Assembly: GCA_963775735.1 (NCBI GenBank) | Contig: CAVZKD010000007.1 | Span: 1,242,487-1,306,486 of the forward strand | Direction of reading: 5' to 3' | Source: an uncultured Actinomycetes bacterium | GTDB taxonomy: Bacteria > Actinomycetota > UBA4738 > HRBIN12 | Length of the DNA stretch: 64,000 bases | Part shown: positions 37,690 through 55,280 of the stretch, piece by piece | Layout of the letters: each line of letters begins with the position of its first letter | Numbering within the stretch: position 1 is the stretch's first letter | Notes under the pieces: generated by a model | What the model was told of the DNA's origin: nothing | The model's input: the letters and a program-made list of their open reading frames with translations, nothing else | Database searches by the model: none | Translations under genes and position numbers: made by a program

Positions 37690-39354
37690 CTACGTCGGCT
37701 GACGACCACCCCCGCCGGTTCGCGTCGGTTGATCGTCGGCCACTCCCCTCCCGGTCGGTTGACGGTTCCCATCACCGTGCTCGGGTGTCGTGGCGTTCAC
37801 GACCCCGAGAGGATGCGGCTGGGCGTAACGGTAGTCAGATGCGAGCGACTGCCCGGCCACCCTGCCGTTGAACATGTTGAGGACGCATCCGATGACGCGA
37901 GCACCGACCTGATCGAGTTGCTGCCGAGCGTAGGCGGCCTCGCTCCTGGTCGTCCTCTTGGCGCGCGCAACGAGCACGACGCCACCGACGACCGTGGAGA
38001 TCGAGAGTGCGTCGGAGGACTCCGCGACGGGTGGGCTGTCGACGATGACGAAGCCCGATCGCTCGCGCAGCTCGCCCATGACCCGCTTCATGGCTTCGGA
38101 CCCCAAGAGATCGGCAAACCCTGGTGACGGGGTCCCGCTCCCCAGGAAGGAGAGGTTGTCGCTCCAGGCCACCAGCGCATCGTCCAAGCTCGCCCGACCG
38201 TCCATCACCTCGACCAAGCCGGGAGCGTCCGAGACGCCGAAGTACCGGTGCAATCCGGGGTTGCGCAGGTCCGCAGAGACCGCGGCGACCGGCTGGCCCG
38301 CCTGAGCAAGCGCGAAGGCCAGGTTCGCGACTGTCACCGTCTTGCCTTCCCGTTTGGAGGGACTCGTGATCAGGATCGTCGTATCCGACTCCTGACCTGC
38401 TCGGAACATCAGGCTCGTTCGAAGCGTGCGGAAGGCCTCGGCCGCGCGCCCCTCGGGCAGTTCTGAGCCGACGAAGCGCTCCCGGCCGCGCCGTCCCAGC
38501 AACACGTGCGACTTCGGAACCACGGTGAGGACGGGCGCCCCCGAGACCGGCGCGAGATCGGCCGGGCTCCTGACGCGATCGTCGACCCGCTCGCGAACCG
38601 ACGCCACGCCAAGTCCCAGGATGAGCCCGATGAGGAGTCCGAATGCACCGTTGAGCAACACGTCGGGACTCGACGGGGAATCGGGGACGCTGGACTGTCG
38701 GATGATGTCCCCGGGATCGATGAGGATCGTGTTGAGCGGAGCGAGCTGACTTCGGAGGTTCGCGATGACGCTCGTGAGCTCCTGGAGTTGCGCCTGCTGT
38801 GCGACGGTCGGCTGGATCGAATCGCCGATGTCCGCCTCGAGCGCCGCCAACTCATCCACGGAAGTCGCGAGCTCGTCGAGCAGCGGCTGCCGGAGGCCCT
38901 CGATGTCCTGCGTCCGCTCCTCGGCCTTGTAGTCGATGTACGCGGTCGCCGCGACCCGAGCCCCCTCCTGGGCTCGTTGCGGGCTCTCGTCCGAGTAGCC
39001 GAACTCGAGGACCTGTGTGTCCACGATGGCGTTCACGTCGAGGTGATCGAGGAACCTCTGGACCGGAACCGGGGGAGACATCATGGCCCCCGCACGGGAT
39101 CCGACCACGGTCGACGTGGCGATGCGCTTCTCGGTCTCGAGCGTGACGGTCGGCGCGGTGAACACGTTCGAGGCGCTGTTGATCGGCTTGACGAGCACCT
39201 CTGCGCTGGAGCGGTAGACGGGCGTCTGCTGGAGCGACCACACCATCGTGGCGAGGAAGACCGCTCCCGCGATCCCCACGATCGCCCACTTCCGGTTCCG
39301 AAGGACTGCGACGTAGTCGCGAATGGGGACGAGAGATGCGTCTTCAGCACTCAT
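37690..39354 (-). CDS. polysaccharide co-polymerase / tyrosine autokinase (Wzc-like: Wzz domain + BY-kinase)
   Basis: ATG 39354 ([40 protein letters not shown]). Periplasmic coiled-coil region and second TM. Walker [10 protein letters not shown], Walker B VIVDSPP. BY-kinase layout. Confidence 0.85.
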
Positions 39355-39526
39355 GAGGGGTGGCTCCGATTCTAGCCGAGGCGGTATGTACGCGACCCGC
39401 TCGGTCGTCGTGGTCCGGCGAGCCTCTCGACCAACGCAGCCGAGGTTCAAGCACCGTCCGTTGGCCCAAGCCCTACCCCTTCGGTACGCTGGTGGAAACC
39501 CGGACGTCATCGAAGGTGTGTATCTC

Positions 39527-40558
39527 GTGAGCAGAGCCCTGGTCACCGGCATCACCGGGCAGGACGGCTCCTACCTGGCGGAACTGCTCCTCGCGAAGGG
39601 GTACGAGGTCCATGGGATCATCCGGCGAGCGTCGACGTTCAACACCCAGCGGATCGATCACCTGTACCAGGATCCGCACGATCGGGGTGTGTCGCTCTTC
39701 CTGCACTACGGAGACCTCACGGACGGATCGCAACTCGCTCGGCTGATCCGCAAGATCGAGCCCGACGAGATCTACAACCTGGCCGCGCAGAGCCACGTGC
39801 AGGTCTCGTTCGAGCAGCCCGAGTACACGGGCGATGTGATCGGGCTTGGGCGTCACGCGGTTGCTCGAGGCGATCCGGGAGACCGGCGTCCAGACGCGCC
39901 TGTATCAGGCGTCGTCGTCCGAGATGTTCGGCGACGCTCCCCCACCGCAATCGGAGGAGTCGTCTTCCGACCTCGGTCTCCATACGCGATCGCGAAGCTC
40001 TACGGACACTGGATGGTTCGGAACTACCGCGAGGCCTACGGGATGTACACCGTGTCGGGCATCCTGTTCAACCACGAGGGCGAGCGTCGAGGCAAGACGT
40101 TCGTCACTCGCAAGATCAGTCGGGCGGTCGCGCGCATCGCGCTCGGCACGCAGCGGAAGCTGTACCTGGGGAACATCGACGCGAAACGCGACTGGGGTCA
40201 CGCGAAAGATCACGTCGAAGCCATCTACCTGATGCTGCAGCAGGACACGCCGAAGGACTACGTCATCGGCACGGGCGAGGCTCACTCGGTGCGGGAGTTC
40301 TGCGAGCTCGCGTTCTCACACGTCGGGTTGGACTGGGAACGATTCGTGAAGGTCGACCCTCGCTATCTGCGTCCGACCGACGTGGACGAGCTGTGCGCCG
40401 ATCCGTCGCGGGCGATGGCGGACCTCGGCTGGAAACCCAAGGTCTCCTTCGAGGAGCTCGTGCGCGGCATGGTCGACGCCGACCTGGCGGCGGAACGCCT
40501 CGGTTCGATCGAGGGTGGGGCTCCCGCGTCATGGCTCACGGCGGGTCTCGATGGCTGA
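39527..40558 (+). CDS. gmd: GDP-mannose 4,6-dehydratase (two compensating 1-nt frameshifts at ~39845 and ~39965)
   Basis: GTG 39527 with gaagg [22 protein letters not shown]; HYGDLTD. Segment [37 protein letters not shown] (catalytic S/E region) is in track ORF 39846..40232, a different frame. Flanks [14 protein letters not shown] and [16 protein letters not shown] are in the main frame. Confidence 0.85.
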
Positions 40559-41507
40559 CCTGCGGGGCAAGCGTGTCTGGGTCGCGGGGCACCGCGGGTT
40601 GGTGGGCTCCGCCCTCGTCCGGCGGCTGGAGCGGGAACCGATCGACACGCTGATCACGGCGGGCTCCGATGAGGTCGATCTTCGCCGACAGAGCGAGACC
40701 GAGGCGTTCGTGGAGGCGACGAAGCCCGACGTCGTGATCGTCGCCGCCGCAGTGGTCGGGGGGATCCAGGCCAACCGGACGGCACAGGGCCGGTTCCTCT
40801 ACGACAACCTGATGATCTCGGCCAACGTCATCGAGGCTGCGCGTCGTTATGGCGTCGAGCAGCTGGTGGCCCTCGGCTCATCGTGCATCTACCCGCGCGA
40901 GGCGCCACAGCCGATGGCGGAGTCCTCGCTGCTCACGGGCCCCCTGGAACCGACGAACGAGGGGTATGCGATCGCGAAGATCGCCGCGCTCGAGATGACG
41001 AAGATGTATCGGCGTCAGTACGGCATGAACGCCATCTCCCTCATGCCGACCAACCTGTACGGGCCGGGCGACAACTTCGACCCGGAGACGTCACACGTCC
41101 TGGCATCCCTCCTGCGAAGGATCCACGAGGCCGACGTCTCCGGTGCCCCCACGGTCGAGGTGTGGGGCTCGGGTACCCCCCGACGTGAGTTCCTCCACGT
41201 CGACGATCTTGCCGACGCCACCGTCTTCGCGATCCAGCACTACGAGGGCGAGCAACACCTGAACGTCGGAACCGGGCAGGACATCTCGGTCCGAGACCTC
41301 GCCGCCCTGATCGCCGACGTGGTCGGATGGAGCGGGCGGTTCGTGTTCAACACCGCGATGCCGGACGGGACGCCCCGCAAGCTGCTCGATGTGAGCGCCC
41401 TTCGGCGACTGGGATGGCCCGGAGCTTCGATCGGACTGCATGCGGGCGTGCGAGCCACGTACGAATGGTTCCTCGCTCACGAGGCCGAGGCGATCGCCTC
41501 CCGGTAG
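40551..41507 (+). CDS. fcl: GDP-L-fucose synthase (GDP-4-keto-6-deoxy-D-mannose 3,5-epimerase/4-reductase)
   Basis: ATG 40551 overlaps the gmd 3' end by 8 nt. [15 protein letters not shown]; YAIAK catalytic YxxxK; CIYP. Confidence 0.9.
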
Positions 41508-42625
41508 GCCGACTCCAGGTGTTGGAGCCCACGTTCGGGCGAGTGGCGTTGCTCCCACAGTTCCCGCGCGGCCGACCCAAGCCGGATCGACTCGTCGTCG
41601 TCACCGAGCCGTTCCAGCGCCGACTGCCATCGCTCGATATCCCGCGGTGGGATCAGGAGTCCGGTCGTGTCGTGATGGACGGCCTCCTCGAGTGAGCCGA
41701 TCCTGCTGGCCAGCACCGGCACGCCGGCGGCGTAGGCCTCGATGATGCTGCGGGGAGACCCCTCGTACCACACGGACGGCAGCACCAGCGCGCGGGCATG
41801 TGCCAGCAGCGAGGGCACCTGCCGTTCGTCGACGGGACCGATGAACTCGACGTTGTCGGGCGCCGTGCGGCGAAGCTCGGCCGATCGCGGCCCGTCCCCC
41901 GCAACGACGAGCCGTCCGAACGACGGCTTCCATGCCGCCAGCAGCGTCGAGACCCCCTTCTCGGGCGAGAGTCGCCCCAGATACAGGAAGCGGTCGCCGG
42001 CGCCGGCGCGTAGTTGGATCGGCCACGAGAAGTTGGGCTTGACGAGTATCCGGCCGGCGGGGATGCGGCCCTCGACATGCTTGTTCCTGATGAACTGGCT
42101 GACGGCGAGGAAGCGTCGAACGCCGGAGAGGCTTCCGAGGGCGCGCTGCGCCTCCAATGAGATCGCCAGGGAGGCGCTTCCGAGCGCCGAACCCCGGTAG
42201 CAGCGGTAGCGGACGCCCCGCCACGGCGCGTGTCCAAGGCATTCCTCGCACACCTTGCCGTCGCGCAGGAACGTCGCGGGCAGACAGAGCAGGCGGTAGT
42301 TGTGCAGGGTCATCACGGTCGGGGCCTGGGCGGCGGCGACGCGAACGGCGGCCGGCGACAACATCGGGAAGAGGTTGTGGAGATGGACGACGTCGGGGTG
42401 ATCGGTCTCGATGAGCGCTCGGACCTTCGAGACGGCGCGTGCAGACCAGATGGCTTCCACCCCCGCGCGCACACGCGACCCGAGCCCTTCACCGTCCGGC
42501 GATGGGGACCACACACGCACGTCGTGGCCTCCACGCTCGAGCAGGCGCGCCTCGTCCTCGACGACTCGGTTCTCGCCGGAGGCAGATCCGGACAGGTACC
42601 TCGAGTGGAGGATCAGGACCCGCAC
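41477..42625 (-). CDS. glycosyltransferase family 4
   Basis: GTG ~42625 (alternative ATG ~42787). C-terminal GT4 EX7E-type motif region (SVWYEGSPRSIIEAYAAGVPVLASRIGSLEE). Converges on and overlaps the fcl 3' end. Confidence 0.8.
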   Translation of the reverse strand: MRVLILHSRYLSGSASGENRVVEDEARLLERGGHDVRVWSPSPDGEGLGSRVRAGVEAIWSARAVSKVRALIETDHPDVVHLHNLFPMLSPAAVRVAAAQAPTVMTLHNYRLLCLPATFLRDGKVCEECLGHAPWRGVRYRCYRGSALGSASLAISLEAQRALGSLSGVRRFLAVSQFIRNKHVEGRIPAGRILVKPNFSWPIQLRAGAGDRFLYLGRLSPEKGVSTLLAAWKPSFGRLVVAGDGPRSAELRRTAPDNVEFIGPVDERQVPSLLAHARALVLPSVWYEGSPRSIIEAYAAGVPVLASRIGSLEEAVHHDTTGLLIPPRDIERWQSALERLGDDDESIRLGSAARELWEQRHSPERGLQHLESAYREAIASAS

Positions 42626-43383
42626 GGTGGGGTGCTCGAAGACCGGGGTCGATCCGCGGGTCGTGTGAGCTCGTCGAACAGGACCCCCGCGACGAACCGG
42701 GGGTTGCCCAAGACGTACCTGCGCCACAGGCGTCGAGGATCCGTCTTCAGTCGGTACGCCCACTCGAGTCCGAGCCCGCTCACCCATCGGGGGGCCCTCG
42801 CGACGGATCCGGAGACGAAGTCGAAGGCCGCGCCCACGCAGAGGATCACGGGTGCGGCCCGCATCCGCTGCAACCGATCGGCGATCAGATCTTGCTTCGG
42901 CGTCCCGAGCCCCACCCATACCGCCTGCGCATCGACCGCGCGCATGCGGCCGACGACGGCTCGGAGCTCCTCATCCCCGAGGTCCCGGAACGGAGGTGAC
43001 TCCGCCCCCGCGATCGCGATCCCCGGCCGGGCGGACTCGAGCTTCGTACGCAGCGCGAGCAGCGTCTCGGGTGTTCCACCGAACAAGTAGTGGCGGAGCC
43101 CCCTCCCCAGGCCCCAGCCGGTCACGATGCGCATCGCATCGGAGCCCGTGAGACGCCCGGTCCTGGATCCGTGCAGCCGGCATACCAACGCCACCGAGGC
43201 TCCGTCCGGGAGGTTGAGACGCCCTCGGTTCAGGACCTCGCGATACGAGCGATCGCGACGCGCGAGGACGGTCGGGTGGGCGGGGATGAAATGCACCACG
43301 TGGCTCTGTCCACAGGCGAGGAAGTCCGACAGCGTGTCCAGCAGCTCGCGGTGATCGATCGGATCGATCCGGACGGTGTTCAC
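42613..43383 (-). CDS. WecB/TagA/CpsF-family glycosyltransferase
   Basis: GTG ~43383. LPDGASVAL...GTPETLL...VWVGLGTPKQD...GVGAAFDFVSG...LEWAYRL match the WecG/TagA family consensus. Confidence 0.8.
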   Translation of the reverse strand: MNTVRIDPIDHRELLDTLSDFLACGQSHVVHFIPAHPTVLARRDRSYREVLNRGRLNLPDGASVALVCRLHGSRTGRLTGSDAMRIVTGWGLGRGLRHYLFGGTPETLLALRTKLESARPGIAIAGAESPPFRDLGDEELRAVVGRMRAVDAQAVWVGLGTPKQDLIADRLQRMRAAPVILCVGAAFDFVSGSVARAPRWVSGLGLEWAYRLKTDPRRLWRRYVLGNPRFVAGVLFDELTRPADRPRSSSTPPCGS

Positions 43384-43591
43384 GACGGGTCGGTGCGGGA
43401 CCGGGTCACACGTGTGGCCGTCGGCCTCGCCCGGCTCGCCGGCATCGGTCACGATCCCTGTTCGCCGGTTCCTGCGCGTGTGTGCCCCCAACGACGGCCC
43501 TGGGTCCCGGAAACGCACGCTAACAGTCGACTCGGCATCCGGGCAACGGCCGGGACCTGTCGACGACGCGGTTCGTTGGGACCATGGCAGG

Positions 43592-44464
43592 ATGGCATCC
43601 TTCGAACGTCAGGGCGTGAGCGTCCTGACACCCTCGCGCGGGTACGCGCACTTCATCCGAGACGCCTTGTCGAGCGTCCAACTCCAGTCGCGTGTCTCCG
43701 TGGAGCACATCGTGCAGGACGGGGCGTCCACGGACGGCACCATCGCCGTCCTGGAGGAGTTCGGAGATCGCGTCCGATGGCGCTCCGAGCCGGATGGTGG
43801 GCAGTCGGACGCCTTGAACAGGGCCCTCTCGCACACGACCAAGGGATGGATCGCGTGGCTCAACGCGGACGAGTTCTACCTGCCGGACGGTCTCGCCGTG
43901 CTCGCCGAGGCCGCTGCGAGGACCGGTGCTGACGTCGTCTACGGTGATTGCGTCTTCGTGGACCAGGATGGACGCGTCACCCGCCTCCTCGCCGCCCACG
44001 ATTTCGACGCGACGGTGCTGGATCGCTACGGCTGCTTCATCAAGACCTGCGCCGCCTTGTTCCGCCGAAGCGCGTTGCCGGATCGCCCCTGGGACGAGCG
44101 CCTGCGGATGACCATGGACTGGGAGCTCTTCCTGCACCTGGCCGCTGCGGGCGCGCGATTCCATCACGTTCGCTATCCGGTCGGAGCGTTCCGCGCGCAC
44201 GCAGGCAGGGTGACGGCGGCGCGGGCGGGTATCGACGATGAATATGCCCTGCTGCGACAGGCGTACGCAGCCGGCGGGGGCGGCCGTTGGATCGGGGTGG
44301 GCCTCCATCGGCTGCACAAGCTGACGCAGGGCGCGTACCGCAGGGAATGGCGGGCTCGGAGATCGTCCGGCGCGGACCTCAGGTGGTTCCGGCCGGACGT
44401 GGGAGCAACGGCCTGGGAAGCGTTCCTCGAGCGATGCTACGGGCGAGCGGCGTCGATCCGCTGA
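43592..44464 (+). CDS. glycosyltransferase family 2
   Basis: ATG 43592 (MASFERQGVSVLTPSRGYAHFIRDALSSV). DGASTDGT and WLNADEF (DxD-type) motifs. Confidence 0.8.
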   Translation: MASFERQGVSVLTPSRGYAHFIRDALSSVQLQSRVSVEHIVQDGASTDGTIAVLEEFGDRVRWRSEPDGGQSDALNRALSHTTKGWIAWLNADEFYLPDGLAVLAEAAARTGADVVYGDCVFVDQDGRVTRLLAAHDFDATVLDRYGCFIKTCAALFRRSALPDRPWDERLRMTMDWELFLHLAAAGARFHHVRYPVGAFRAHAGRVTAARAGIDDEYALLRQAYAAGGGGRWIGVGLHRLHKLTQGAYRREWRARRSSGADLRWFRPDVGATAWEAFLERCYGRAASIR

Positions 44465-44538
44465 TGCGGCTCTCCTGAGTCCCCGGATCGACGCGACCCG
44501 TCGGATGTCGCCGCGAGGCGCGATCGATCGGCCCTCCG

Positions 44539-45531
44539 TCATGCACCGTCGGCGTCCGGCTCCGTCGGTGCGGCTTCCGTCGAGGTCCGCCCGCCCGATC
44601 CTCGACCTTGCCCCGCGGGGATCCTGGATGCGAGGCGGCGAACCCGGCGCAGCAGCTCTCGCGGGCCCCGCATCCAGCCGAACCAACCTTGCAGCTTCGC
44701 CCGCGCGATCGCCGCTGTATCGCTGTCGACGATCTCGAGTCGACCCCACGAGAACGGACTCGTCCGCGTATCGACCAGCTCGATCTCGGTGCTGAGACCA
44801 CAGGTCACACCCGCGCGCTTCGCGGCGTCGATCAGGGCCTCGTCGACGAACCCGGCTCGAACGCTCCCGAACGGGAAGGAGAAGCCCCGATCGCCCTTGC
44901 CGAGACGCCGGTTCAGCACCGACACGGACCGCCGGAGATCGCGGAAGAGATCGTCCGACCTGCGCTTGAAGTTCGCGTGCGAATGGGTGTGGGAACCGAA
45001 CTCCACGAGCCCCGAGGCTTCCATCTCCTTGATCTCGGTCCACGACAACGGACGCCACGCGTCTTCCGGCACCGCATCGCGGTAACACCGCCCCCAACGA
45101 TCGAACGGGAAGGGATCGGGGTCACCGATGAAGGCGGTGGTCAAGAACACCGTCGCCGGAACGCCGAGTTCCTTCAGCACGGGGAATGCATGGAGGTACA
45201 CGCTCGCGAAGCCATCATCGAACGTGACCGCGGCAACCCGCCCTGGGAGCGGGCTGCCATCCGACGCATGTGCGATGAGGTCTCGGAGTGGCCAGAAGCG
45301 ATACCCAGCGCGGATCAACCCCTCGAGCTGTTCGCGGAACCGTCCGGGTCCGACGTTCAGGCTCCGGCGCGGGGGTGCCCCGAACGACGGCGAAACCGAG
45401 TGGTAGAGGAGGATGCCCGCCCGCCCCCGAGCGTTCGACCCGAGCACGAAGGCGAGGACCAGAGCGATCCGGCCACCCACCCACTTGACGGCACTCGTCA
45501 GGGCCTCGGCGAGGCCAGCGGGGTCGTTCAT
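44539..45531 (-). CDS. polysaccharide deacetylase (NodB-homology domain)
   Basis: ATG ~45531 (alternative 45564). TM then VTFDDGF...HTHSH (NodB metal-binding D-D and H-H motifs). Confidence 0.8.
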   Translation of the reverse strand: MNDPAGLAEALTSAVKWVGGRIALVLAFVLGSNARGRAGILLYHSVSPSFGAPPRRSLNVGPGRFREQLEGLIRAGYRFWPLRDLIAHASDGSPLPGRVAAVTFDDGFASVYLHAFPVLKELGVPATVFLTTAFIGDPDPFPFDRWGRCYRDAVPEDAWRPLSWTEIKEMEASGLVEFGSHTHSHANFKRRSDDLFRDLRRSVSVLNRRLGKGDRGFSFPFGSVRAGFVDEALIDAAKRAGVTCGLSTEIELVDTRTSPFSWGRLEIVDSDTAAIARAKLQGWFGWMRGPRELLRRVRRLASRIPAGQGRGSGGRTSTEAAPTEPDADGA

Positions 45532-45710
45532 GGCGAAGGTGCGGCCGATGGGAGCACGACGCATATGTGGGGGGCAAACGCTGCCTTCGGATTCTCGCAG
45601 ACCCTCCCCCTTTCCGCTGAACGGCCTACCGCGGAGTCCGCAGGGCATGAGGGGATCCTCAGGCGTTAGCATCGGATGGGTCCGCATCGAATCCACCCCG
45701 ACGGAGGCGC

Positions 45711-47957
45711 ATGGACACCACACCCTCAACGGGGGCAACCACACTTCCCCTCGACGAAGCGCTGCCGATCCTCGAGCTGCTCGGTGAGCGCGTCGCCATC
45801 CTGCATCCGCCACGGGTCCGGGGCGGCACGATCGGAGGAGGCGATCTCGACTGTGCCGTCTCCAGCCTGGACGCGATGTGGCCACTTCGCCTCCCCGAGG
45901 GTTGGGCCCTCTGCCAGCGGCTGCACTACGACAGCACGGGTTGGTATTGGGTGCTGGATCGCCATGGGAACGTCCTTGCGGTCGACACGCTCGAGGACCC
46001 CCACGGCATCGGCCGGCACGGTTTCCCCTCGACGCTCGCGTTCGGTGATCCCCCCCATCTCGTGGCTCCGGCAACCGCCCGTGCGGCCTACCTGACCGCC
46101 AAGCGCCTCGACAAGGGCTCGAGGGCTCCCGCCCAATGGAGCCACATCGGACGGCTCGCGCAACAGGATCACCAGGACTATCGGATGGCCCTCGCCGAGG
46201 TGATCGGCCGCGACGTGTCCGATGCGGTTGCGCGGTACGCCGAGCAGGGCCTGCCTCCACCACCAGCGATCTGGCACCGCGCCCGTCGCGCGCAGATCGT
46301 GCGTCGGGTCCGAACCCCGACACGGGCCATCGAGCTCCTCGCACGGAGCAGCGGCCGGATCGCGGAACGAACGCTCCGACCGACGGGCCTGAGCGTCCTC
46401 ATCGTCGGTCCGGATGGGGCCGGGAAGTCCACGCTGGCCGGAGACCTTCCAGAGGTGTGCCGAGGGCTCTTCCGGCGCGTGTTGCGCCTCCACTGGCGCC
46501 CGGGGCTGCTGCCACGGCCGGGCTCCCTCGTCGCGCGACCCGGCGGTGCCGCGGATCCGTCACAGCCGCATGCACGTCCACCCCATGGGAGGGCCGTCTC
46601 GCTTGCCCTGCTCGCCTATTACTGGCTGGACTGGTTCGTCGGGGGATGGACCATGCTGCGCTTCGTACAGGCTCGGACCGGCCTCGTCGTGATCGAACGC
46701 GGATGGTGGGACGTGGCCGTGGACCCCGGCCGATACCGGCTGAACGTCGCGCCGGCCGCCGTGAACCTCCTCGGGAGGTTCCTGCCGAGCCCCGACCTGG
46801 CGATCGTGCTCGATGTCCCGGCCGCCGTGGCGGCCGAACGCAAAGGTGAGCTGCCGCCGACCGAGGTCGACCGGCAGACACGAGCTTGGCGCACGGCCTT
46901 GCCGAGCACCCTCAACTCGGTCCATCTGGACGCCTCGCGTCCTGCAGACGAATCGGCCGACGCGGCAAGGAACGAGATCGTGCGGGCGCTCTCGGCTCGC
47001 GCACATCGAAGGCTGGGAGCCGGCTGGATCCCTCTCCCGAGCCGCTCGAGCCCACGTTGGCTCTTCCCGCGCGGACCCCGCGACGCCGTCCGTGACAGCC
47101 TGCTGCTGTACCAACCCGTCACGGTTCGGGCGCGGATCGGTTGGGAGATGGCTCGCGTGCTCGGCTCGATCGGAGGGTTCCGGCTCCTGCCCCGGGGCGC
47201 GCCTCCAGGTCCGAACCTGCGGCGAGCGCTCGGCCCTCACCTGCCTCGTCACGCCTCGCTGGCGCTGGCCCGCGCCAACCACCCGGGGCGGTCGGTGGCG
47301 CTCGTGCGGGCGCCGGGCGCGATCCCGAAGATCATCAAGCTCGCCTCCGATGAGCGCGGGCGGAGCGCCCTCTCGAGAGAGGCGCGAGCATTGGAAACGA
47401 TCGCCCGGGACCTCCCCTCACCCTTGGTGGCCCCGATACTCCTCCACCACGAGCCGGGGATGCTGGTCGAGCGCGCCATCCGGTGGCAGCCCAGGACCCG
47501 CCCGTGGCTCATGCCCAAAGAGGTCGCGTTCGCCCTCGGTGCCTTCTTCGCCCGCGGAGCGAGCGAGCACCTGGGGGCGTTGACCGGCCCCGCGCACGGC
47601 GACTGCGCGCCCTGGAACCTCCTTCGATCGGGCGACGTCTGGGTGCTCGTCGACTGGGAGGACGCGCGAGAGCAGGCACCACCGTTCTTCGATCTCCTGC
47701 ATTTCCTGGTGCAGTCGCACGCGCTCCTGGGACGACCCTCCGGCGACGCGATCGTCGAGGGCGTGAAGGGACGCGGGTGGATCGCAGCACTCGTCCGTGC
47801 GTATGCCGCCGGCGCGGCCATCGACGCGAACGAGGCAGCGTCCCACCTCGTCGCCTACCTGGAGGAGAGCGGTGGCCCGCCTCCATCGAAGCAGACGGCC
47901 TCCGAACGCACCGCCGCGCGAGCCAGGGGGCGGCTCCTGTCGGCGTTGCAGCCGTGA
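45711..47957 (+). CDS. tri-domain protein: Pol-beta-like nucleotidyltransferase N-domain, central P-loop NTPase/kinase-like domain and C-terminal APH/choline-kinase-like phosphotransferase domain
   Basis: ATG 45711 with GGAGG RBS. RVRGGTIGGGDLDCAV = hG[GS]...DhD minimal-nucleotidyltransferase motif. LIVGPDGAGKSTLAGDL Walker A. HGDCAPWNLL...VLVDWEDA = HGDxxxxN...D Brenner/APH catalytic motifs. Confidence 0.6.
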   Translation: MDTTPSTGATTLPLDEALPILELLGERVAILHPPRVRGGTIGGGDLDCAVSSLDAMWPLRLPEGWALCQRLHYDSTGWYWVLDRHGNVLAVDTLEDPHGIGRHGFPSTLAFGDPPHLVAPATARAAYLTAKRLDKGSRAPAQWSHIGRLAQQDHQDYRMALAEVIGRDVSDAVARYAEQGLPPPPAIWHRARRAQIVRRVRTPTRAIELLARSSGRIAERTLRPTGLSVLIVGPDGAGKSTLAGDLPEVCRGLFRRVLRLHWRPGLLPRPGSLVARPGGAADPSQPHARPPHGRAVSLALLAYYWLDWFVGGWTMLRFVQARTGLVVIERGWWDVAVDPGRYRLNVAPAAVNLLGRFLPSPDLAIVLDVPAAVAAERKGELPPTEVDRQTRAWRTALPSTLNSVHLDASRPADESADAARNEIVRALSARAHRRLGAGWIPLPSRSSPRWLFPRGPRDAVRDSLLLYQPVTVRARIGWEMARVLGSIGGFRLLPRGAPPGPNLRRALGPHLPRHASLALARANHPGRSVALVRAPGAIPKIIKLASDERGRSALSREARALETIARDLPSPLVAPILLHHEPGMLVERAIRWQPRTRPWLMPKEVAFALGAFFARGASEHLGALTGPAHGDCAPWNLLRSGDVWVLVDWEDAREQAPPFFDLLHFLVQSHALLGRPSGDAIVEGVKGRGWIAALVRAYAAGAAIDANEAASHLVAYLEESGGPPPSKQTASERTAARARGRLLSALQP

Positions 47958-49183
47958 GCGATCGCCGGATCCTGGCCTTCGCGTACGCCTGCGAACCGGA
48001 GGGGGGGTCCGAACCCGGAGCCGGATGGGCGTGGTCGCGCATCCTGGCTGGTCTCGGCGAGACCTGGGTGGTGACGAGGGCGAACAACCGCACGGCTATC
48101 GAGGCGCGCCTGGAGTCGATCCCGGAGCGGGATCGACTCCATTTCGTCTACGTGGACCTCCCGTCGTGGGCTCGGTTCTGGAAGCGGGGGCATCGAGGGA
48201 TCCGTCTGTACTACATGCTGTGGCAGGCGGCGGCGCTCCGTTCCGCTCGCCGACTGCACGAACAACATCGATTCGATCTCGTCTGGCACCTCACCCTCGC
48301 CAACGCGTGGCTCGGTTCGGCCGCGTCATTGGTGGGACCGCCGTTCGTCTACGGTCCCGTCGGCGGAGGGATCGGCCTCCACTGGCGCCTGCTCCCCGCC
48401 CTCGGCGTTCGAGGAACCGCCTACGAGCTCGCGCGAACGGCGGCTCGTCTCGGCAGCCGGTACCTCAACCCGGTCGCGCGCCTGTCGTGGCGGCGATCTC
48501 GCTGCATCCTGGTCCAGAACCCCGAGACCCGCGATTGGCTCCCCGCACGCTACCGAGGCAGGGCACGCATCGTTCCGAACGTCGCCTTCGAGGACCCCGT
48601 GGCCACCGGGCACTCCCCGGGGCGACCTCTGCGGGACGCGCCGACCGCGATGTATGCGGGCCGGCTCCTCCCGCTGAAGGGCGTCGCCCTGGCGATCCGC
48701 GCCATGGTCTGGCTTCCCGGTTGGCGGCTGACGATCTGCGGGAGCGGCTGGGACGAGTCCCGGCTCCGTGAGATCGCCGAGCGATCGGGCGTGGGCGATC
48801 GCGTTCGGTTCCTCGGCCGCGTGTCTCGGACGGACGTCGTGCAACGCATGTCCGACCACACGGACGTGTTCTTGTTCCCGAGCCTCCACGACGAGGGCCC
48901 ATGGGCCGTCGCCGAGGCGCTCGCGTCCGGCCTGCCCGTTGTCTCCTTGGACACCGGGGGGCCGATCGTGCTCGGGAGCACCGGCGTGGAGATCGGGTGG
49001 CCGTCGGAGACGGTGCGGCGGCTGGCCGACGCGGTGATCCAGGCGGTCCCGCCGAACGATCCCCCGCGCTTCGATCTGGCGTCGCGGAGGGACGAGGTCA
49101 TCTCGGTCCTCGACGAGGCGGGCATCGACGTCGGGATCGGTTCGGATGTGGACGCGCCCCACGGGACATCCGCGTCGATCTGA
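47954..49183 (+). CDS. glycosyltransferase family 4
   Basis: GTG 47954 overlapping the upstream stop (GTGA). FPSLHDEGPWAVAEALASGLPVV = GT4 E..E motif region. Confidence 0.8.
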   Translation: MSDRRILAFAYACEPEGGSEPGAGWAWSRILAGLGETWVVTRANNRTAIEARLESIPERDRLHFVYVDLPSWARFWKRGHRGIRLYYMLWQAAALRSARRLHEQHRFDLVWHLTLANAWLGSAASLVGPPFVYGPVGGGIGLHWRLLPALGVRGTAYELARTAARLGSRYLNPVARLSWRRSRCILVQNPETRDWLPARYRGRARIVPNVAFEDPVATGHSPGRPLRDAPTAMYAGRLLPLKGVALAIRAMVWLPGWRLTICGSGWDESRLREIAERSGVGDRVRFLGRVSRTDVVQRMSDHTDVFLFPSLHDEGPWAVAEALASGLPVVSLDTGGPIVLGSTGVEIGWPSETVRRLADAVIQAVPPNDPPRFDLASRRDEVISVLDEAGIDVGIGSDVDAPHGTSASI

Positions 49184-49190
49184 CGGCCCG

Positions 49191-50483
49191 TCACGTCCTC
49201 GGCCAGAACAGGTCCAGCATCGCGCGCGGAGCGAAACGGGCCTGCGTCCAGATCCCGAGCCGTCGCTTCACGAACCACAGCAGCAGGAGCACCTGCACGA
49301 GGATCCCCACCGTGGTCGCGGCCGCCACACCGAGGACGCCGAACGGCCCAACCATCGCCAAGCCCGCGAGGGAGCTCACGGCGCCCGTGACGATGGTGAT
49401 GACCATCATCAGCTTCTGGTGTCCCGTCATCGTCAGCGCGTCCCCGCAGGGACCGACCAGCATGATGCTCAGGTACCCCACGCTCAGTACCGCCATCACG
49501 TCACTCGCCTGCCCGTAGGACGGCCCGTAGACGATGCTCAGGATGGAGCTCCCGAACGCCACGAAGAGCAGGAACAACGCGATGCTCGGCAGGCTCAGCC
49601 ATGCCGTGGCGATCCGCAAGGCCCGCTGCAGCTGGGGTCGGTCTCCCCGTTCGTGAAGCTCGGCGATGAGCGGCGGCACGACGGAATGCAGGACCAGCGC
49701 CGGGGCCGCGACCAACGCTGCCAGCCGGACGGCTGCACCGTAGAGGGCGACCTCGCGCTCGCCGAGGAACGCCCCGATGATCCAGACGTCCGTCCAGGTC
49801 GTGACCGCGAAGATCGCCAGCCCGGTCACCCCGATCGGCCACGTGAAGGAGAGCACCTCGCGGAGATCGAGTCGTGACCCCGGCTCGAGAGAGCCGATCC
49901 GGCGCCAGAGGAGGAGACCGGCGATCGTGAGGCTCGCGACGCTGGCCGCGACGGACAGGGCCAGCACGGGTTCCAGGGTGGCGTGCCCGACCGTGACCCA
50001 CATGACGAGCAGGACGATCGCGGTGAGCGAGCCGCTCGCGAGGCCCTCGAACAGGGTGGCAAGCCGGATGTCGTGCAGCCCTCGGAACACGCCGGAGACC
50101 ACGTTCTGGATCGTGAGGCTCACCACCCACGCGGCGATCAGCCACGAGACGCTCGCGAGCAGCGGCGATCCGAACACGTGCTCGGCGATCCAGGCGCCCG
50201 CGCCGGCCGCCAGGATCGCGCCCGCCGCCACGGCCCCGATGATGGACAACCGGAGGACGGCAACGATCGCCCCCCGCGCCCTGCCCGTGTCTCCCATGAC
50301 CAACGGCTTCGCGATCAGTGGGACCGCGGCCTGTCGAAGCCCCAGCTCGGCAGCCACGCTGGTCACGACCACCATGGAGGCGGCGAGGACGTAGGCCCCG
50401 AACGCGCTGGGGCTGAGGAGACGAGCCAGGAGCGCGCCGATGCCCACCGTCGCGACCGTCGAGACCACCTTGAGCGCGACCAC
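49191..50483 (-). CDS. oligosaccharide flippase (Wzx / MOP-superfamily, polysaccharide biosynthesis protein), start uncertain
   Basis: 12-TM protein. N-terminus ...LVAGSAWVVALKVVSTVATVGIGALLARLLSPSAFGAY fits the Wzx consensus. The only in-frame start near the expected N-terminus is GTG ~50483, and the conserved region begins ~10 codons upstream, so an indel near the G6 run at 50583-50588 may obscure the true start. Confidence 0.7.
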   Translation of the reverse strand: MVALKVVSTVATVGIGALLARLLSPSAFGAYVLAASMVVVTSVAAELGLRQAAVPLIAKPLVMGDTGRARGAIVAVLRLSIIGAVAAGAILAAGAGAWIAEHVFGSPLLASVSWLIAAWVVSLTIQNVVSGVFRGLHDIRLATLFEGLASGSLTAIVLLVMWVTVGHATLEPVLALSVAASVASLTIAGLLLWRRIGSLEPGSRLDLREVLSFTWPIGVTGLAIFAVTTWTDVWIIGAFLGEREVALYGAAVRLAALVAAPALVLHSVVPPLIAELHERGDRPQLQRALRIATAWLSLPSIALFLLFVAFGSSILSIVYGPSYGQASDVMAVLSVGYLSIMLVGPCGDALTMTGHQKLMMVITIVTGAVSSLAGLAMVGPFGVLGVAAATTVGILVQVLLLLWFVKRRLGIWTQARFAPRAMLDLFWPRT

Positions 50484-50560
50484 CCATGCGGAACCAGCGA
50501 CCAGACGCTGGCGAACCGAGTCCGAGAGGGTGGAGCTCGCTCGAGGAGAGATCTCGTCGG

Positions 50561-51898
50561 TCAGCCCGCGGCTCCCAACGATGGGGGGCGGGCCGCTCCG
50601 GCGCGGGACGGATCGCCGGTTCGAGCGTCGCTCAGACCCATCGTCATCATCACTCCGTACATGGCGAACAACGCTGCCGAGGTGCCGACGGTCTCGAGCA
50701 GGGAGTTGAAGGCCGCGACGACGAGCCAGGCGTTGAAGCCCACCAGCAGGACGCGCAGCAACGAAGCCTGAGCGCCGTTGCCGAGCATCCGCGCGTGGCG
50801 GATGTGCCGCAAGGTCCACAGGTTCGTGGCGACGGCCCAGGCCGCGAAGAGGGCAACTGCCAGAACGCCTCCGCCGAGGGCGAGGTTGAGGTAGTCCTGG
50901 TGGAGGGCGAGCCGAGTGGGCACACCTTCCAGCTCGATCGGGACGGTCATCTCTCCGGTGAACGCATGACCGACGAGCGGAGAGGCCCTGATCTGCTCGA
51001 TCCCCTGGGTCCACAGATCGAGCCGGGTGTCGACGTTACTCGTCTTCCCCACATCTCGGAAGTACGATTGCGCCAAGGAGACCGTCCCGCCCAGGTTCAA
51101 CAGGCCGACGGTCACCACCACCGCAGCCGCGAGTCCCACGACGTACGCCCGAGCCGGCGAGGCGTGGGGCCTCGTCACGAACAGGGTCACGGCTGCAACG
51201 ACCAGGACGAACACGTACGTGCCGGCCGGATACCTCGAGTAGATGTACACGGCCAGGACCGAGAGAACGAGGGTGCGAAGTGCCAGGCGACGCTCGATCG
51301 CTGCTGCGATGGCGATCGCGAGGAAGAACGCCTTCCAGTGGCCGAACGACTCGAAGGTCCACGAGTCGAACGCACCAGCACTCGCGAGGCCTTGGAGGAG
51401 GACGTAGAGCAGACCGATGTTCGAGAGGGACCGGAGCAGGCGGCCCGCCTCATCACGGGTCACCGGCTGGGTGGTCACCAGGTACGGAAGCCCGATGAGC
51501 ATCGGAAGGAAGATCGGGAAGGCCGAGGTATCCGTGTTCAAGAAGAGCCGGCCGTACATCGAACCGAGCAGACCGCACGCCGCGAGCGTCAACAACATCA
51601 GGTCCGTGCTCGCCGGCCGTCGGATCAGCGGTGACGGGCTGGTCGCGAACAGGGCCAGCGCGGTGGCGATGGGGATCCCGAGCAGCAGGTACCGGAGGCC
51701 GACGCCCGCCTGCAACGCCGACGCTCGCCCGAACGCGTCGATGATGTCGATGACCACGAGGAACAGGACCAGGAGCAGCGACCGCGAGAAGATGAACGAG
51801 TCGGTCTCGGAGGGCCACGGATGGTCGACCGCGAGCGGGATCGCCCGATCGCCACGCGCGACGATCACGTCGCCGCTCCCGCCGGAGATCCCGTGCAT
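50561..51898 (-). CDS. O-antigen ligase / polymerase-family membrane protein (Wzy-like)
   Basis: 445 aa, 10-12 TM, with a central large periplasmic loop (O-antigen ligase domain pattern). Confidence 0.7.
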   Translation of the reverse strand: MHGISGGSGDVIVARGDRAIPLAVDHPWPSETDSFIFSRSLLLVLFLVVIDIIDAFGRASALQAGVGLRYLLLGIPIATALALFATSPSPLIRRPASTDLMLLTLAACGLLGSMYGRLFLNTDTSAFPIFLPMLIGLPYLVTTQPVTRDEAGRLLRSLSNIGLLYVLLQGLASAGAFDSWTFESFGHWKAFFLAIAIAAAIERRLALRTLVLSVLAVYIYSRYPAGTYVFVLVVAAVTLFVTRPHASPARAYVVGLAAAVVVTVGLLNLGGTVSLAQSYFRDVGKTSNVDTRLDLWTQGIEQIRASPLVGHAFTGEMTVPIELEGVPTRLALHQDYLNLALGGGVLAVALFAAWAVATNLWTLRHIRHARMLGNGAQASLLRVLLVGFNAWLVVAAFNSLLETVGTSAALFAMYGVMMTMGLSDARTGDPSRAGAARPPSLGAAG

Positions 51899-51909
51899 CA
51901 GCTCGCCCG

Positions 51910-53418
51910 TCAGTACGCGCCTCGTCGTGAGAGGAGCGCCGGGACGGTCTTGGCGAGGATGAACAGGTCGAAGGACAAGGACCAGTTCTCGATGTAGAAG
52001 AGGTCACGCCGGATGCTCCTGTCGAACGACAGCTCGCTCCTGCCCTCGACCTGCCAGAGCCCGGTCACCCCGGGCGCGACTTCGAGTCGGGCGTGATGCC
52101 AATCGGCGTAGCGGCGGACCTCCCGCGGGAGCGGGGGTCGAGGACCGACAAGGCTCATGTCGCCCTTCAGGACGTTGATGAGCTGGGGAAGCTCGTCGAG
52201 GCTCCACCTGCGCAGCCACCGCCCGACCCGCGTGACCCTCGGATCGTCACGGATCTTGAACAGTGGCCCGTCGGCCTCGTTCCGATCGTGGAGATCGAGA
52301 AGCATCGCCTCTGCACCCTTGACCATCGTGCGGAACTTCAACAGGGTGAACGTTCGTCCTTGGCGCCCGACACGCACCTGGCGGAAGAAGATCGGCCCTC
52401 CCGAACTGACACCGATCGCGACGACGATCCCCACGGTCAGGGGGATCGTCACGACCAGAAGGATGGAAGCGAGCAGGAGGTCCATCGCGCGCTTGGCTGC
52501 CGCTTGGCCACCGGAGAGCGTCGCCGACCGCAGGGAGACGACGGTGAGGTCACGCAGCGGCTGCACGGTCAGCCGCGTGGGAAGGACGTACGGGAGGTTG
52601 GCCGACAACCTCAGCTCGATCCTTTCGAGCCGGGATGCCTTCGCGATCTGCGACATGACATCGGGGGTCACGGCCGATGAGGCGACGAAGACGCAGTCCA
52701 CGGCCAGGTCCTCGATGACACCGCGAAGGGCGTCGACGTCGCGGGCGGCCTCCGGTGGGACGCGCACGATCGACGCATCCGCTCGATGTCCCGCCGTTCC
52801 GTCACCGGTCGGCACGATGCCGACCGCTCGGAACCCGAGGCTCGGGCGCCGGAAGGCGCCCAGGAGCGTCATCGCCTCCTCGTTGGCTCCGACGACGAGC
52901 GTTCGGTACGCCAATCGACCATCGCTGCGCATGCGCCCCAGCACGCGGTGCCATCGCTGTCGGGACGCGAGACACAACACCGTGGCGAGGGCCCATGTGA
53001 GACCGAGCCAGAGGCGGGAGAACGGCAACTGCGACCAATAGCTGAACAAGGCGATGACGGCGGCGCCCACGCCCAGTGCGGCGATGAGGCGGCGGAACTC
53101 TTCCGCTGGGCTCATGTGTTGGATCGAGTAGAGACGGAAGGAACAGAAGACGCCGATCAATAGGACGATCGCGATGGCGATGTGGAGCCCGAGTGTCGTG
53201 GACACCCCACGGACGCCGAAACGCGCGAGGTAGGCGACGAACATCGCGACCACGAGTGACAGGCAGTCGGTCGCGGCCATCCAACGGGAGATCGTCCGGT
53301 AGCGGGGCAGGACGTCGGACCGCAGCTCGACCAGGTCGAACTCGGGCCCGGGGAGGCCCGCCCGCTGTGGCCTCGAGGTTGCGCCTTCGCTCATGCCCTC
53401 GTCCTGACTACGCGCCAT
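51910..53418 (-). CDS. undecaprenyl-phosphate hexose-1-phosphate transferase (WbaP/sugar transferase family, initiating enzyme)
   Basis: 502 aa. 4-5 N-terminal TM, C-terminal bacterial sugar-transferase domain (AMDLLLASILLVV...GPIFFRQVRVGRQGRTFTLLKFRTM...SLVGPRP). Confidence 0.85.
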   Translation of the reverse strand: MARSQDEGMSEGATSRPQRAGLPGPEFDLVELRSDVLPRYRTISRWMAATDCLSLVVAMFVAYLARFGVRGVSTTLGLHIAIAIVLLIGVFCSFRLYSIQHMSPAEEFRRLIAALGVGAAVIALFSYWSQLPFSRLWLGLTWALATVLCLASRQRWHRVLGRMRSDGRLAYRTLVVGANEEAMTLLGAFRRPSLGFRAVGIVPTGDGTAGHRADASIVRVPPEAARDVDALRGVIEDLAVDCVFVASSAVTPDVMSQIAKASRLERIELRLSANLPYVLPTRLTVQPLRDLTVVSLRSATLSGGQAAAKRAMDLLLASILLVVTIPLTVGIVVAIGVSSGGPIFFRQVRVGRQGRTFTLLKFRTMVKGAEAMLLDLHDRNEADGPLFKIRDDPRVTRVGRWLRRWSLDELPQLINVLKGDMSLVGPRPPLPREVRRYADWHHARLEVAPGVTGLWQVEGRSELSFDRSIRRDLFYIENWSLSFDLFILAKTVPALLSRRGAY

Positions 53419-54724: not shown

Positions 54725-55222
54725 CTAGCCGCCCGCCGAGGGGTCGGGCTCGGACAGGATCCTCGCGGCCTGCTCCTTGCGATGTTGCCGAACCGCGTCG
54801 GCCAGGTCCGGATGGGACCTGGCGAGGATCTGCGTCGCCAAGATCGCGGCGTTCACGGCACCGGCCTTCCCAACGGCCAGCACCCCGACGGGGATGCCCC
54901 CGGGCATCTGCACCATCGACAGCAGGGAGTCAAGACCGCCGAGCAGCTTCGACTCCATGGGCACGCCCAGCACGGGCAGCGTGGTCTGCGCCGCCACCAC
55001 CCCCGGCAGTGCGGCCGCCATCCCCGCGGCCGCGATGAAGACCTCGACACCTCGGGCCTCGCCGTCGGTGATCCACTCGGAGAGCTCGGCCGGCGTCCGA
55101 TGTGCCGAGAGCACGCGGGTCTCGAACGGAACGCCGAGGGCCTGCAGCTGCGTGGCGCAGTGCTGCATCGTCTCCCAGTCGGACGCCGACCCCATCACGA
55201 CGCCCACGAGTGGCTCGGTCAC
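54725..55222 (-). CDS. purE: N5-carboxyaminoimidazole ribonucleotide mutase
   Basis: GTG ~55222 with gaaggga RBS. VGVVMGSASDW...AHRTP...GVEVFIAAAGMAAALPGVVAAQTTLPVLGVP, canonical PurE. Confidence 0.85.
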   Translation of the reverse strand: MTEPLVGVVMGSASDWETMQHCATQLQALGVPFETRVLSAHRTPAELSEWITDGEARGVEVFIAAAGMAAALPGVVAAQTTLPVLGVPMESKLLGGLDSLLSMVQMPGGIPVGVLAVGKAGAVNAAILATQILARSHPDLADAVRQHRKEQAARILSEPDPSAGG

Positions 55223-55280
55223 TTCATCCCTTCGGCCGCTGAGCGTGGGAAGTGTAGTCGGGCAGGTCGCAGGCTTCGTG

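What the first reader, a model, noticed from the sequence alone, without database searches (positions are those of the whole stretch)
45711..47957. Unusual tri-domain nucleotidyltransferase / P-loop / APH-like kinase protein inside the polysaccharide locus
A single 748-aa ORF combines three nucleotide-handling modules. Residues ~1-190 carry a Pol-beta-type minimal nucleotidyltransferase motif (GGGDLDCAV). The central domain has a Walker A (GPDGAGKST) P-loop NTPase/kinase. The C-terminal domain carries the APH/choline-kinase catalytic motifs (HGDCAPWNLL...VDWEDA). It sits between a deacetylase and a GT4, with an overlapping stop/start (GTGA) to the GT4. That placement suggests it decorates the polymer or its lipid-linked precursor, for example by phosphorylation plus nucleotidylation or phospho-head-group addition, analogous to LicA/LicC-type phosphocholine decoration but with different folds. 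I am not aware that this exact domain fusion is a described enzyme class. It is the strongest candidate in this window for a novel function.
Basis: partly seen in the sequence, partly recalled or inferred. Interest (0 to 1): 0.7.

Follow-up and report, generated by a model that had tools for sequence, protein, structure and literature searches.

The report
Three-enzyme fusion in conserved glycan cassette
This gene really encodes three nucleotide-using enzymes fused into one protein, and it belongs to an unstudied gene cassette, always paired with one particular glycosyltransferase, that recurs in sugar-polymer gene clusters from soil Actinomycetota to human-gut Bacteroidota.

Summary

No curated family or paper describes the architecture, and the N-domain has no Pfam or NCBIfam model. 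The protein is not a one-off. More than 200 full-length homologs exist, mostly in uncultured Actinomycetota. A split version (NTase-TMK core, orthologous GT4, APH-like kinase) occurs in other phyla, with more than 1000 clusters in gut Bacteroidota, usually named "thymidylate kinase" or "hypothetical". Fusions link the modules to the downstream GT4, a second GT4 and a cytoplasmic CE4 deacetylase.

My best reading is that the protein prepares the substrate of the dedicated GT4, most likely a nucleotide-activated donor. The chemistry is inferred, not shown.

The parts
45703..45707 (+). Shine-Dalgarno GGAGG of the tri-domain gene
   Evidence: Read directly from the sequence.
45711..47957 (+). Tri-domain ORF, 748 aa (NTase, TMK-like, APH-like)
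   Evidence: More than 232 homologs. AF2 pLDDT 92.2. No transmembrane segment.
45711..46355 (+). Domain 1 (aa 1-215): Pol-beta-superfamily nucleotidyltransferase core plus helical bundle. Key residues G43, D45, D47, D92, D96, and the basic helix A125-L128-K131-R132-K135.
46356..47018 (+). Domain 2 (aa 216-436): thymidylate-kinase-fold P-loop phosphotransferase. Walker A is G233-P-D235-G-x-G-K239-S/T. Other motifs: H261-W-R263-P-G, E329-R330-G, LID R377-K378-x-E380, and L-D407-A-S.
47019..47954 (+). Domain 3 (aa 437-748): family-specific N-terminal cap (RWxLPRGP, YQPVT) plus a choline-kinase/APH-type kinase. Key residues K543, E557, H629-G-D631, N636, D648-W-E650, D661, H664.
47954..49183 (+). 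GT4-B: dedicated partner glycosyltransferase (409 aa), translationally coupled through the GTGA overlap
   Evidence: Pfam Glycos_transf_1, 77 bits. Full-length orthologs next to the kinase genes in Actinomycetota (34-73% identity) and Bacteroidota (28-31% identity, E 1e-45 to 1e-50). Fused to the tri-domain protein in P0075.
44539..45648 (-). CE4 polysaccharide deacetylase, divergent neighbour. The start is uncertain: M at 45648 or at 45564.
   Evidence: PF01522, 76 bits. Nearest PDB relatives are PgaB/IcaB-type enzymes. No strong transmembrane segment. The same family is fused N-terminally to NTase-TMK-APH in P0252 and P0258.
43376..44464 (+). GT2, conserved with the cassette within Actinomycetota (start uncertain)
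   Evidence: PF00535. Orthologs at 49-70% identity in L001, L026, L028 and L029.
41477..42919 (-). GT4-A, a second conserved GT4 of the Actinomycetota module
   Evidence: Pfam. Orthologs in L001, L026, L031 and L029. Fused to TMK-APH in L007.
37690..53418 (.). Enclosing Wzx/Wzy-type glycan locus: Wzz/BY-kinase, Gmd, Fcl-like epimerase, GT4-A, GT2, CE4, tri-domain gene, GT4-B, Wzx, Wzy, Bac_transf priming transferase
   Evidence: Flanking genes are unrelated metabolism. GC is uniform at about 0.69.

Best explanation
The gene encodes a soluble cytoplasmic fusion of three enzymes, each predicted to be active. They are a MenT/ANT(2'')-like nucleotidyltransferase, a thymidylate-kinase-fold P-loop phosphotransferase and a choline-kinase/APH-type small-molecule kinase. 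It is the fused Actinomycetota form of a cassette conserved across phyla: [NTase-TMK-like core] + [APH-like kinase] + one dedicated GT4 (GT4-B, the next gene here).

The mechanism I commit to is an 'activate-and-transfer' unit that supplies GT4-B with its own substrate:
1. The APH-like kinase phosphorylates a sugar or sugar-like alcohol with ATP.
2. The NTase joins that phosphate to an NMP taken from an NTP, giving an NDP-linked donor.
3. The TMK-like domain carries out a second phosphoryl transfer onto a phosphate-bearing species, either an intermediate or the released nucleotide.
4. GT4-B installs the residue on the lipid-linked repeat unit. In Actinomycetota a cytoplasmic CE4 de-N-acetylase acts in the same pathway.

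What is shown: the folds, the conserved catalytic residues, the gene linkage and the fusions. What is inferred: every substrate, the order of steps and the product.
For: Folds.

Catalytic residues are invariant across 58 homologs. The NTase triad and the P-loop are invariant across at least 6 phyla and four architectures. TMK acceptor-site motifs are retained: the acidic P-loop residue D235, R-P-G, E-R, and the LID.

The NTase and TMK-like domains are always fused, while the APH module is separable. It is a separate gene in L031 and in L033/L034 (hhalign probability 93.9%). It is replaced by an ATP-grasp domain in P0253.

GT4-B is a specific ortholog found next to the kinase genes in nearly every locus and phylum examined. 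It is translationally coupled here and fused in P0075.

Against: No Pol-beta-type NTase is known to make NDP-sugars. The nearest structural relatives (MenT, ANT(2''), LnuA) nucleotidylate hydroxyl groups. One kinase would be enough to make a donor, so the role of the most conserved domain (TMK-like) remains the weakest step. CE4 enzymes normally act on glycans and not on monosaccharides, so the CE4 fusions fit direct glycan tailoring better. No substrate, product or activity was observed. One tri-domain locus (L027) is not an obvious GT-rich locus.
Confidence: 0.35

Rival explanations
1. Direct tailoring of the lipid-linked glycan. A GT adds an N-acetyl-hexosamine and the cytoplasmic CE4 removes the acetyl group. 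The APH-like and ANT-like domains then phosphorylate and/or nucleotidylate hydroxyls of the resulting amino-sugar, as APH and ANT enzymes do to aminoglycosides. This creates the modified acceptor that GT4-B extends.
For: CE4 is adjacent here and fused to NTase-TMK-APH in P0252 and P0258 with no transmembrane segment. The nearest structural relatives of the N- and C-domains include enzymes that modify sugar hydroxyls of amino-sugar oligomers (ANT(2''), LnuA, APHs). GT4-B's best solved relatives, sucrose-phosphate synthase and MshA, use phosphorylated acceptors (weak, mostly donor-domain similarity). GT4-A is fused to TMK-APH in L007.
Against: The cassette occurs in very different glycan loci and phyla, where a common acceptor structure is unlikely. 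CE4 is absent from the Bacteroidota loci. A TMK-type site built for a phosphomonoester acceptor has no obvious role on a nucleotidylated (diester) glycan.
Confidence: 0.3
2. Phospho-head-group addition in the manner of LicA/LicD. The APH-like domain makes X-phosphate. The NTase-fold domain acts like LicD/FKRP, transferring phospho-X from an NDP-X donor to the glycan and releasing NMP. The fused TMK-like domain rephosphorylates that NMP.
Confidence: 0.12
3. A regulatory or scaffolding protein. The nucleotide-binding domains sense or hydrolyse nucleotides to control GT4-B or polymer assembly, without chemically modifying a sugar.
For: High pTM (0.89) indicates one compact particle. It is tightly coupled to GT4-B. 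P-loop regulators of polysaccharide assembly exist, such as BY-kinases; one is encoded at 37690-39555.
Against: Full catalytic sets, and not only binding residues, are invariant in all three domains. These include the NTase third Asp, the APH catalytic Asp/Asn and the TMK E-R and LID residues.
Confidence: 0.08
4. Something ordinary or unrelated: a housekeeping thymidylate kinase, an aminoglycoside-resistance enzyme, a toxin-antitoxin NTase, or an anti-phage conflict system.
For: Sources name homologs 'thymidylate kinase' or 'phosphotransferase'. There are weak Pfam hits to GT4-conflict and TCAD9. MenT toxins are the top fold match.
Against: The dTMP-kinase equivalog model scores 10.6 bits against an 83 cutoff. 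PADLOC gives no hit for the window proteins. PHROGs gives only P-loop-level similarity. The context is consistently glycan assembly. No antitoxin-like partner is present.
Confidence: 0.02

Closest known systems
Thymidylate kinase (Tmk, PF02223)
   Different: It is embedded between two other enzymes. It has a conserved 30-residue His/Pro-rich insert (aa 261-296). The Arg that contacts thymine in E. coli Tmk aligns to an aromatic residue (low-identity alignment). It scores far below the dTMP-kinase equivalog cutoff. It is located in glycan loci and not in a nucleotide-metabolism context.
Choline kinase LicA / fructosamine-3-kinase / aminoglycoside phosphotransferases (APH family, PF01636)
   Different: It has a family-specific, roughly 80-residue N-terminal cap with invariant RW/PRGP/YQP motifs that is also present in the stand-alone Bacteroidota version. 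Its substrate is unknown. It is fused to two other enzymes.
MenT/AbiEii toxins and ANT(2'')/LnuA antibiotic nucleotidyltransferases
   Different: No detectable sequence similarity. It is always fused to a TMK-like kinase. The context is glycan assembly, not toxin-antitoxin or resistance.
Bifunctional sugar-activating enzymes HldE and Fkp (kinase + nucleotidyltransferase)
   Same: The logic is the same: kinase and NTase activities fused in one polypeptide and encoded with the glycosyltransferases that use the product (knowledge).
   Different: The folds are entirely different. HldE and Fkp use ribokinase/GHMP kinases and Rossmann-like or GT-A-like NTases. Here there are two kinases, not one.
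PAPS synthase and the Campylobacter MeOPN pathway (NTase + P-loop kinase making a 3'-phospho-nucleotide donor)
   Same: An NTase step is coupled to a P-loop kinase step to build an activated group donor for glycan decoration (knowledge).
   Different: The P-loop domain here is TMK-like, not APS-kinase-like. No sulfurylase or MobA-type NTase is present. Only one locus (L031) has a sulfotransferase.
LicA-LicC-LicD phosphocholine decoration
   Same: A LicA-like kinase fold and an NTase-superfamily domain within a glycan locus.

Membership tests
Pol-beta-superfamily nucleotidyltransferase | Alpha/beta NTase core fold | tested here: met
Pol-beta-superfamily nucleotidyltransferase | G[GS] followed by [DE]h[DE]h, plus a third carboxylate on the adjacent strand | tested here: met
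   G43, D45 and D47 are invariant or nearly so. D92 lies on strand 87-94. All are invariant in 13/13 cross-phylum sequences. The G-to-DxD spacing is shorter than the classical 9-13 residues.
Pol-beta-superfamily nucleotidyltransferase | Match to a curated sequence family (NTP_transf_2, AbiEii, NTP_transf_5 and similar) | tested here: not met
   No Pfam or NCBIfam hit at E <= 1 for the N-domain. No PDB sequence hit.
Pol-beta-superfamily nucleotidyltransferase | Nucleotidyl-transfer activity | not testable with these tools
   Requires a biochemical assay.
Thymidylate kinase (PF02223 / TIGR00041) | TMK fold with P-loop, DR[YH]-type motif and LID | tested here: met
Thymidylate kinase (PF02223 / TIGR00041) | Score above the curated family cutoff | tested here: not met
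   Window protein: PF02223 13.6-17.6 bits against a cutoff of 27; TIGR00041 10.6 against 83. Distant two-domain relatives pass PF02223 (38.9, 34.4 and 27.3 bits) but none pass the dTMP-kinase equivalog.
Thymidylate kinase (PF02223 / TIGR00041) | dTMP as substrate; housekeeping role | not testable with these tools
   The context argues against a housekeeping role. The thymine-contacting Arg is not conserved in the alignment (low confidence).
APH / choline-kinase family (PF01636) | Bilobal kinase fold with beta3 Lys, alphaC Glu, HxDxxxxN and a D-x-E metal site | tested here: met
APH / choline-kinase family (PF01636) | Score above the curated cutoff | tested here: inconclusive
   22.6 bits against 23.2 for the isolated domain. 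16 of 58 homologs hit at E <= 0.01, best 2.5e-8.
LicA/LicC/LicD phosphocholine system | LicC-type cytidylyltransferase and LicD-family (PF04991) transferase present | tested here: not met
Anti-phage defence / conflict systems | Match to a known defence-system protein model | tested here: not met
   PADLOC gives no hits for the tri-domain protein or GT4-B.
Conserved NTase-TMK + APH-like + GT4-B cassette (defined here) | NTase-TMK core, APH-like module and an orthologous GT4-B within a few kb or fused | tested here: met
   Window. L001, L029, L030, L031, L026/P0075, L033 and L034.

The most novel reading that the evidence does not exclude
The cassette performs glycan chemistry that has not been described. 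It would be a portable, self-contained route in which a Pol-beta-type nucleotidyltransferase, in place of the canonical Rossmann/GT-A pyrophosphorylase, acts with a thymidylate-kinase-like phosphotransferase and a choline-kinase-like kinase. Together they would build a new kind of activated donor, or a phospho-/nucleotidyl-glycan intermediate, for a dedicated GT4. It could also represent the ancestral physiological context from which ANT- and APH-type aminoglycoside-modifying enzymes were recruited.
Probability: 0.25. Interest if true: 0.85.

Novelty: new variant of a known kind. Interest (0 to 1): 0.62.

Why it matters
All three folds are familiar, but this combination, its obligate GT4 partner and its product are undescribed. 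The N-terminal domain has no curated family model.

The cassette is not a curiosity of one MAG. It is common in soil Actinomycetota. In split form it is present in more than a thousand protein clusters from gut Bacteroidota, including Segatella copri, where it is annotated as "thymidylate kinase" or "hypothetical".

Working out its product would add a step to the known repertoire of surface-glycan biosynthesis. It would correct a widespread mis-annotation. It might also reveal a non-canonical way to activate or phosphorylate sugars, relevant to capsule diversity, host-microbe recognition and glyco-engineering.

Tried and rejected
- Sequence-only searches of the whole protein against Pfam, NCBIfam and PDB gave only sub-threshold P-loop and APH hits, so profiles and structure prediction were needed.
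- The word-indexed search with the N-domain profile returned only 2 proteins, probably because low-complexity words flooded the candidates. The exhaustive HMMER search replaced it.
- Even that search under-counted the family. Cross-phylum N-domains were found only through the TMK-like domain and then by inspection.
- hhalign of the TMK-like domain against single-sequence E. coli Tmk aligned only the LID and C-terminus. MAFFT with intermediate sequences gave the motif correspondence.
- The context of the ATP-grasp variant P0253 was uninformative because the gene is at a contig edge.
- Five literature searches found nothing relevant.
- I initially assumed P0075 carried its GT4 at the C-terminus. 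One search shows it is N-terminal.
- The ORF at 42230-43090 (+) gave tblastn hits in many loci, but it is the antisense shadow of GT4-A and not a gene.
- Rejected readings: housekeeping Tmk, resistance enzyme, toxin-antitoxin and phage-defence system (and the context calls).
Full report
**Observation.** The ORF at 45711-47957 (+) is real. It starts at ATG, encodes 748 aa and has a GGAGG ribosome-binding site 4 nt upstream. The stop overlaps the GTG start of the next gene as GTGA. The upstream neighbour is a CE4 polysaccharide deacetylase on the opposite strand, and the downstream neighbour is a GT4. Many shadow ORFs exist in this roughly 69% GC sequence, but this one is a gene. It has more than 232 homologs of the same length at 45-82% identity. 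Across 58 of them, 51 columns are invariant. AlphaFold2 gives a model with mean pLDDT 92.2 and pTM 0.89.

**Anatomy.** Sequence searches alone were weak. Only sub-threshold P-loop, Thymidylate_kin and APH hits appeared, and nothing for the first 200 residues. Profiles and structure resolved all three parts.

  - GPDGAGKST to GLEGAGKTT, including the acidic residue inside the P-loop
  - HWRPG to TREPGG
  - ERG (ERY in P0222) to DRH
  - RKxEL to the RGEL LID
  - LDAS to IDAT

  All of these residues are invariant or nearly so.

None of the proteins has a transmembrane segment.

**Family and distribution.** An exhaustive HMMER search with the N-domain profile over 1.84 billion cluster representatives found only 254 hits. 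About 80 are strong, and most of those have the ~730-aa tri-domain architecture. Named sources are Actinomycetota MAGs. The weak tail revealed other architectures:

- NTase + TMK-like only (about 450 aa; P0222, P0229)
- CE4 deacetylase + NTase + TMK-like + APH-like (P0252, P0258; four domains, no transmembrane segment)
- NTase + TMK-like + ATP-grasp in place of APH (P0253)
- GT4-B + NTase + TMK-like + APH-like (P0075; a cluster of 81 sequences)
- GT4-A + TMK-like + APH-like (L007)

Following the TMK-like domain instead showed that the two-domain core is much more widespread than the N-domain profile could see. Proteins of about 440 aa occur in Bacteroides, Tannerella, Sulfurimonas, Akkermansiaceae, Rhodobacteraceae and Binataceae. 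All have a [GS]-D-x-D-[ILV] N-domain and the same GPDGxGK[ST] P-loop. In these proteins Pfam Thymidylate_kin passes its curated cutoff, but the N-domain still has no Pfam or NCBIfam model. A search from the Bacteroides member returned more than 1047 clusters, among them Segatella copri and Bacteroides sp. CAG:443 proteins named 'hypothetical protein' or 'thymidylate kinase'.

**Context.** The window locus (about 37.7-53.4 kb) is a complete Wzx/Wzy-type cluster. It contains Wzz/BY-kinase, GDP-mannose 4,6-dehydratase, an Fcl-like epimerase, GT4-A, GT2, CE4, the tri-domain gene, GT4-B, Wzx, Wzy and a Bac_transf priming transferase. It is flanked by unrelated metabolism genes.

Six of the seven tri-domain loci examined are glycan loci, of either Wzx/Wzy or ABC-transporter type. 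L027 is the exception.

The downstream GT4 is a specific ortholog group. It shows 34-73% full-length identity among Actinomycetota loci, whereas other GT4s in the same loci match only over about 100-160 aa at around 30%. It shows 28-31% full-length identity (E 1e-45 to 1e-50) to the GT4 that follows the core in Bacteroidota. A tblastn survey found a GT4-B homolog within 1-3 kb of the TMK-like gene in nearly all loci from eight or more lineages.

In L031 the cassette is split, in order, as [NTase-TMK] [APH] [GT4-B]. In L030 it is [CE4-NTase-TMK-APH] [CE4] [GT4-B]. In Bacteroidota the order is [core] [GT4-B] [370-aa unknown]. That unknown protein is a homolog of the window's entire C-terminal module: hhalign probability 93.9%, E 1.6e-7, 234 columns, with shared RWxxP, YQP, DxxPWN, DWE and DxxHxLxQ motifs, and a LicA hit at E 0.0076.

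The functional unit is therefore a cross-phylum cassette of NTase-TMK core + APH-like kinase + GT4-B. Actinomycetota fuse the first three modules and add CE4, GT2 and GT4-A.

**Mechanism.** The following points are shown:
- three folds with conserved catalytic residues
- obligate fusion of the NTase and TMK-like domains
- a separable and once-replaceable third ATP-dependent module
- an obligate, co-evolving, translationally coupled or fused GT4
- a cytoplasmic location, including for the CE4

Everything about substrates is inference.

I commit, at about 0.35, to an activate-and-transfer model. The APH-like kinase phosphorylates a sugar or sugar-like alcohol. The NTase converts that phosphate ester to an NDP-linked donor. 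The TMK-like domain performs a second phosphoryl transfer on a phosphate-bearing intermediate or on the released nucleotide. GT4-B then installs the residue.

The main arguments for this model are these:
- The cassette moves as a unit between otherwise unrelated glycan loci. That is how donor-synthesis-plus-cognate-GT cassettes behave.
- Kinase-NTase fusions (HldE, Fkp) are the established logic of sugar activation (knowledge).
- In every chemically sensible ordering, an NTase acting on a phosphomonoester yields exactly what a GT-B enzyme consumes.

Its weaknesses are also clear:
- Pol-beta NTases are not known to make NDP-sugars.
- One kinase would be enough.
- CE4 fusions point to a glycan substrate.

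**Comparison with known systems and novelty.** Each domain belongs to a known superfamily. However, the window protein fails the curated thresholds for dTMP kinase (10.6 against 83 bits) and Thymidylate_kin (at most 17.6 against 27). It is borderline for APH (22.6 against 23.2). The N-domain has no family model at all. It works most like bifunctional sugar-activating enzymes, or like NTase + P-loop-kinase donor factories such as PAPS synthase and the MeOPN pathway, but it shares no fold with them apart from the generic P-loop. No paper in the searchable library mentions the architecture.

I rate it a new variant of a known kind: a glycan-locus accessory enzyme built from known folds in an undescribed combination. 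There is about a 0.25 chance that it encodes new activation or decoration chemistry.

**Limits.** No activity, substrate or product was observed. Model coordinates could not be inspected, so the geometry between domains is unknown. The source organism was not identified. The context survey covers about 30 loci, not the whole family.

Noticed in passing
window 37690-39555 (-): A 621-aa ORF combines a Wzz chain-length-determinant domain with a CbiA/ParA-type P-loop domain. This is a BY-kinase-like co-polymerase at the edge of the glycan locus.
   Followed up: partly
window 54777-57182 (+): An 801-aa Hanks-type Ser/Thr protein kinase (Pkinase, 166 bits) lies just downstream of the priming transferase. 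It may or may not regulate the locus.
   Followed up: no
window 30015-33182 (-): One 1054-aa ORF carries both a partial aldehyde-dehydrogenase domain (aa 137-363) and a complete amidohydrolase domain (aa 689-1042). It could be a true fusion, or two genes merged by the mechanical ORF call.
   Followed up: no
window 60772-62535 (-): A 586-aa ORF has an N-terminal carboxymuconolactone-decarboxylase (CMD) domain and only the C-terminal third of a cytochrome P450. It may be a fusion, a truncated P450 or an over-extended ORF.
   Followed up: no
window 42230-43090 (+): This ORF gave tblastn hits in many related loci. It lies antisense to GT4-A (41477-42919, -), and its hits sit on the strand opposite the GT4-A orthologs. 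It is a high-GC shadow ORF, not a gene.
   Followed up: yes
L027 2503-5001 and 7981-10122: Two paralogous tri-domain genes lie in one locus. They are next to phosphosulfolactate synthase (ComA), 2-phosphosulfolactate phosphatase, Lar_N and several methyltransferases rather than GTs. This is the only tri-domain context found that is not an obvious GT-rich locus.
   Followed up: partly
L031 1749-2687 and 14361-15338: The split-cassette locus also encodes a sulfotransferase and an NTP_transf_5 (PF14907) uncharacterised nucleotidyltransferase. It is interrupted by two copies of an IS element with an rve integrase.
   Followed up: no
P0253 (871 aa; contig in JGI sample 3300047160): This variant replaces the APH-like module with an ATP-grasp domain after the NTase-TMK core. 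It suggests the third module only needs to be some ATP-dependent activating enzyme. Its genomic context was uninformative.
   Followed up: partly
L007 6792-9479: An Ilumatobacteraceae ORF fuses a GT4-A ortholog to TMK-like and APH-like domains with no recognisable DxD NTase motif, and GT4-B follows it. The NTase may be lost or too diverged to recognise in this lineage.
   Followed up: partly
window 13158-13234 (-), 28717-28789 (+), 34606-34681 (+): Three tRNA genes (Pro-TGG, Gly-TCC, Arg-TCT). The tRNA-Arg lies about 3 kb upstream of the glycan locus. There is no compositional sign of an island.
   Followed up: no
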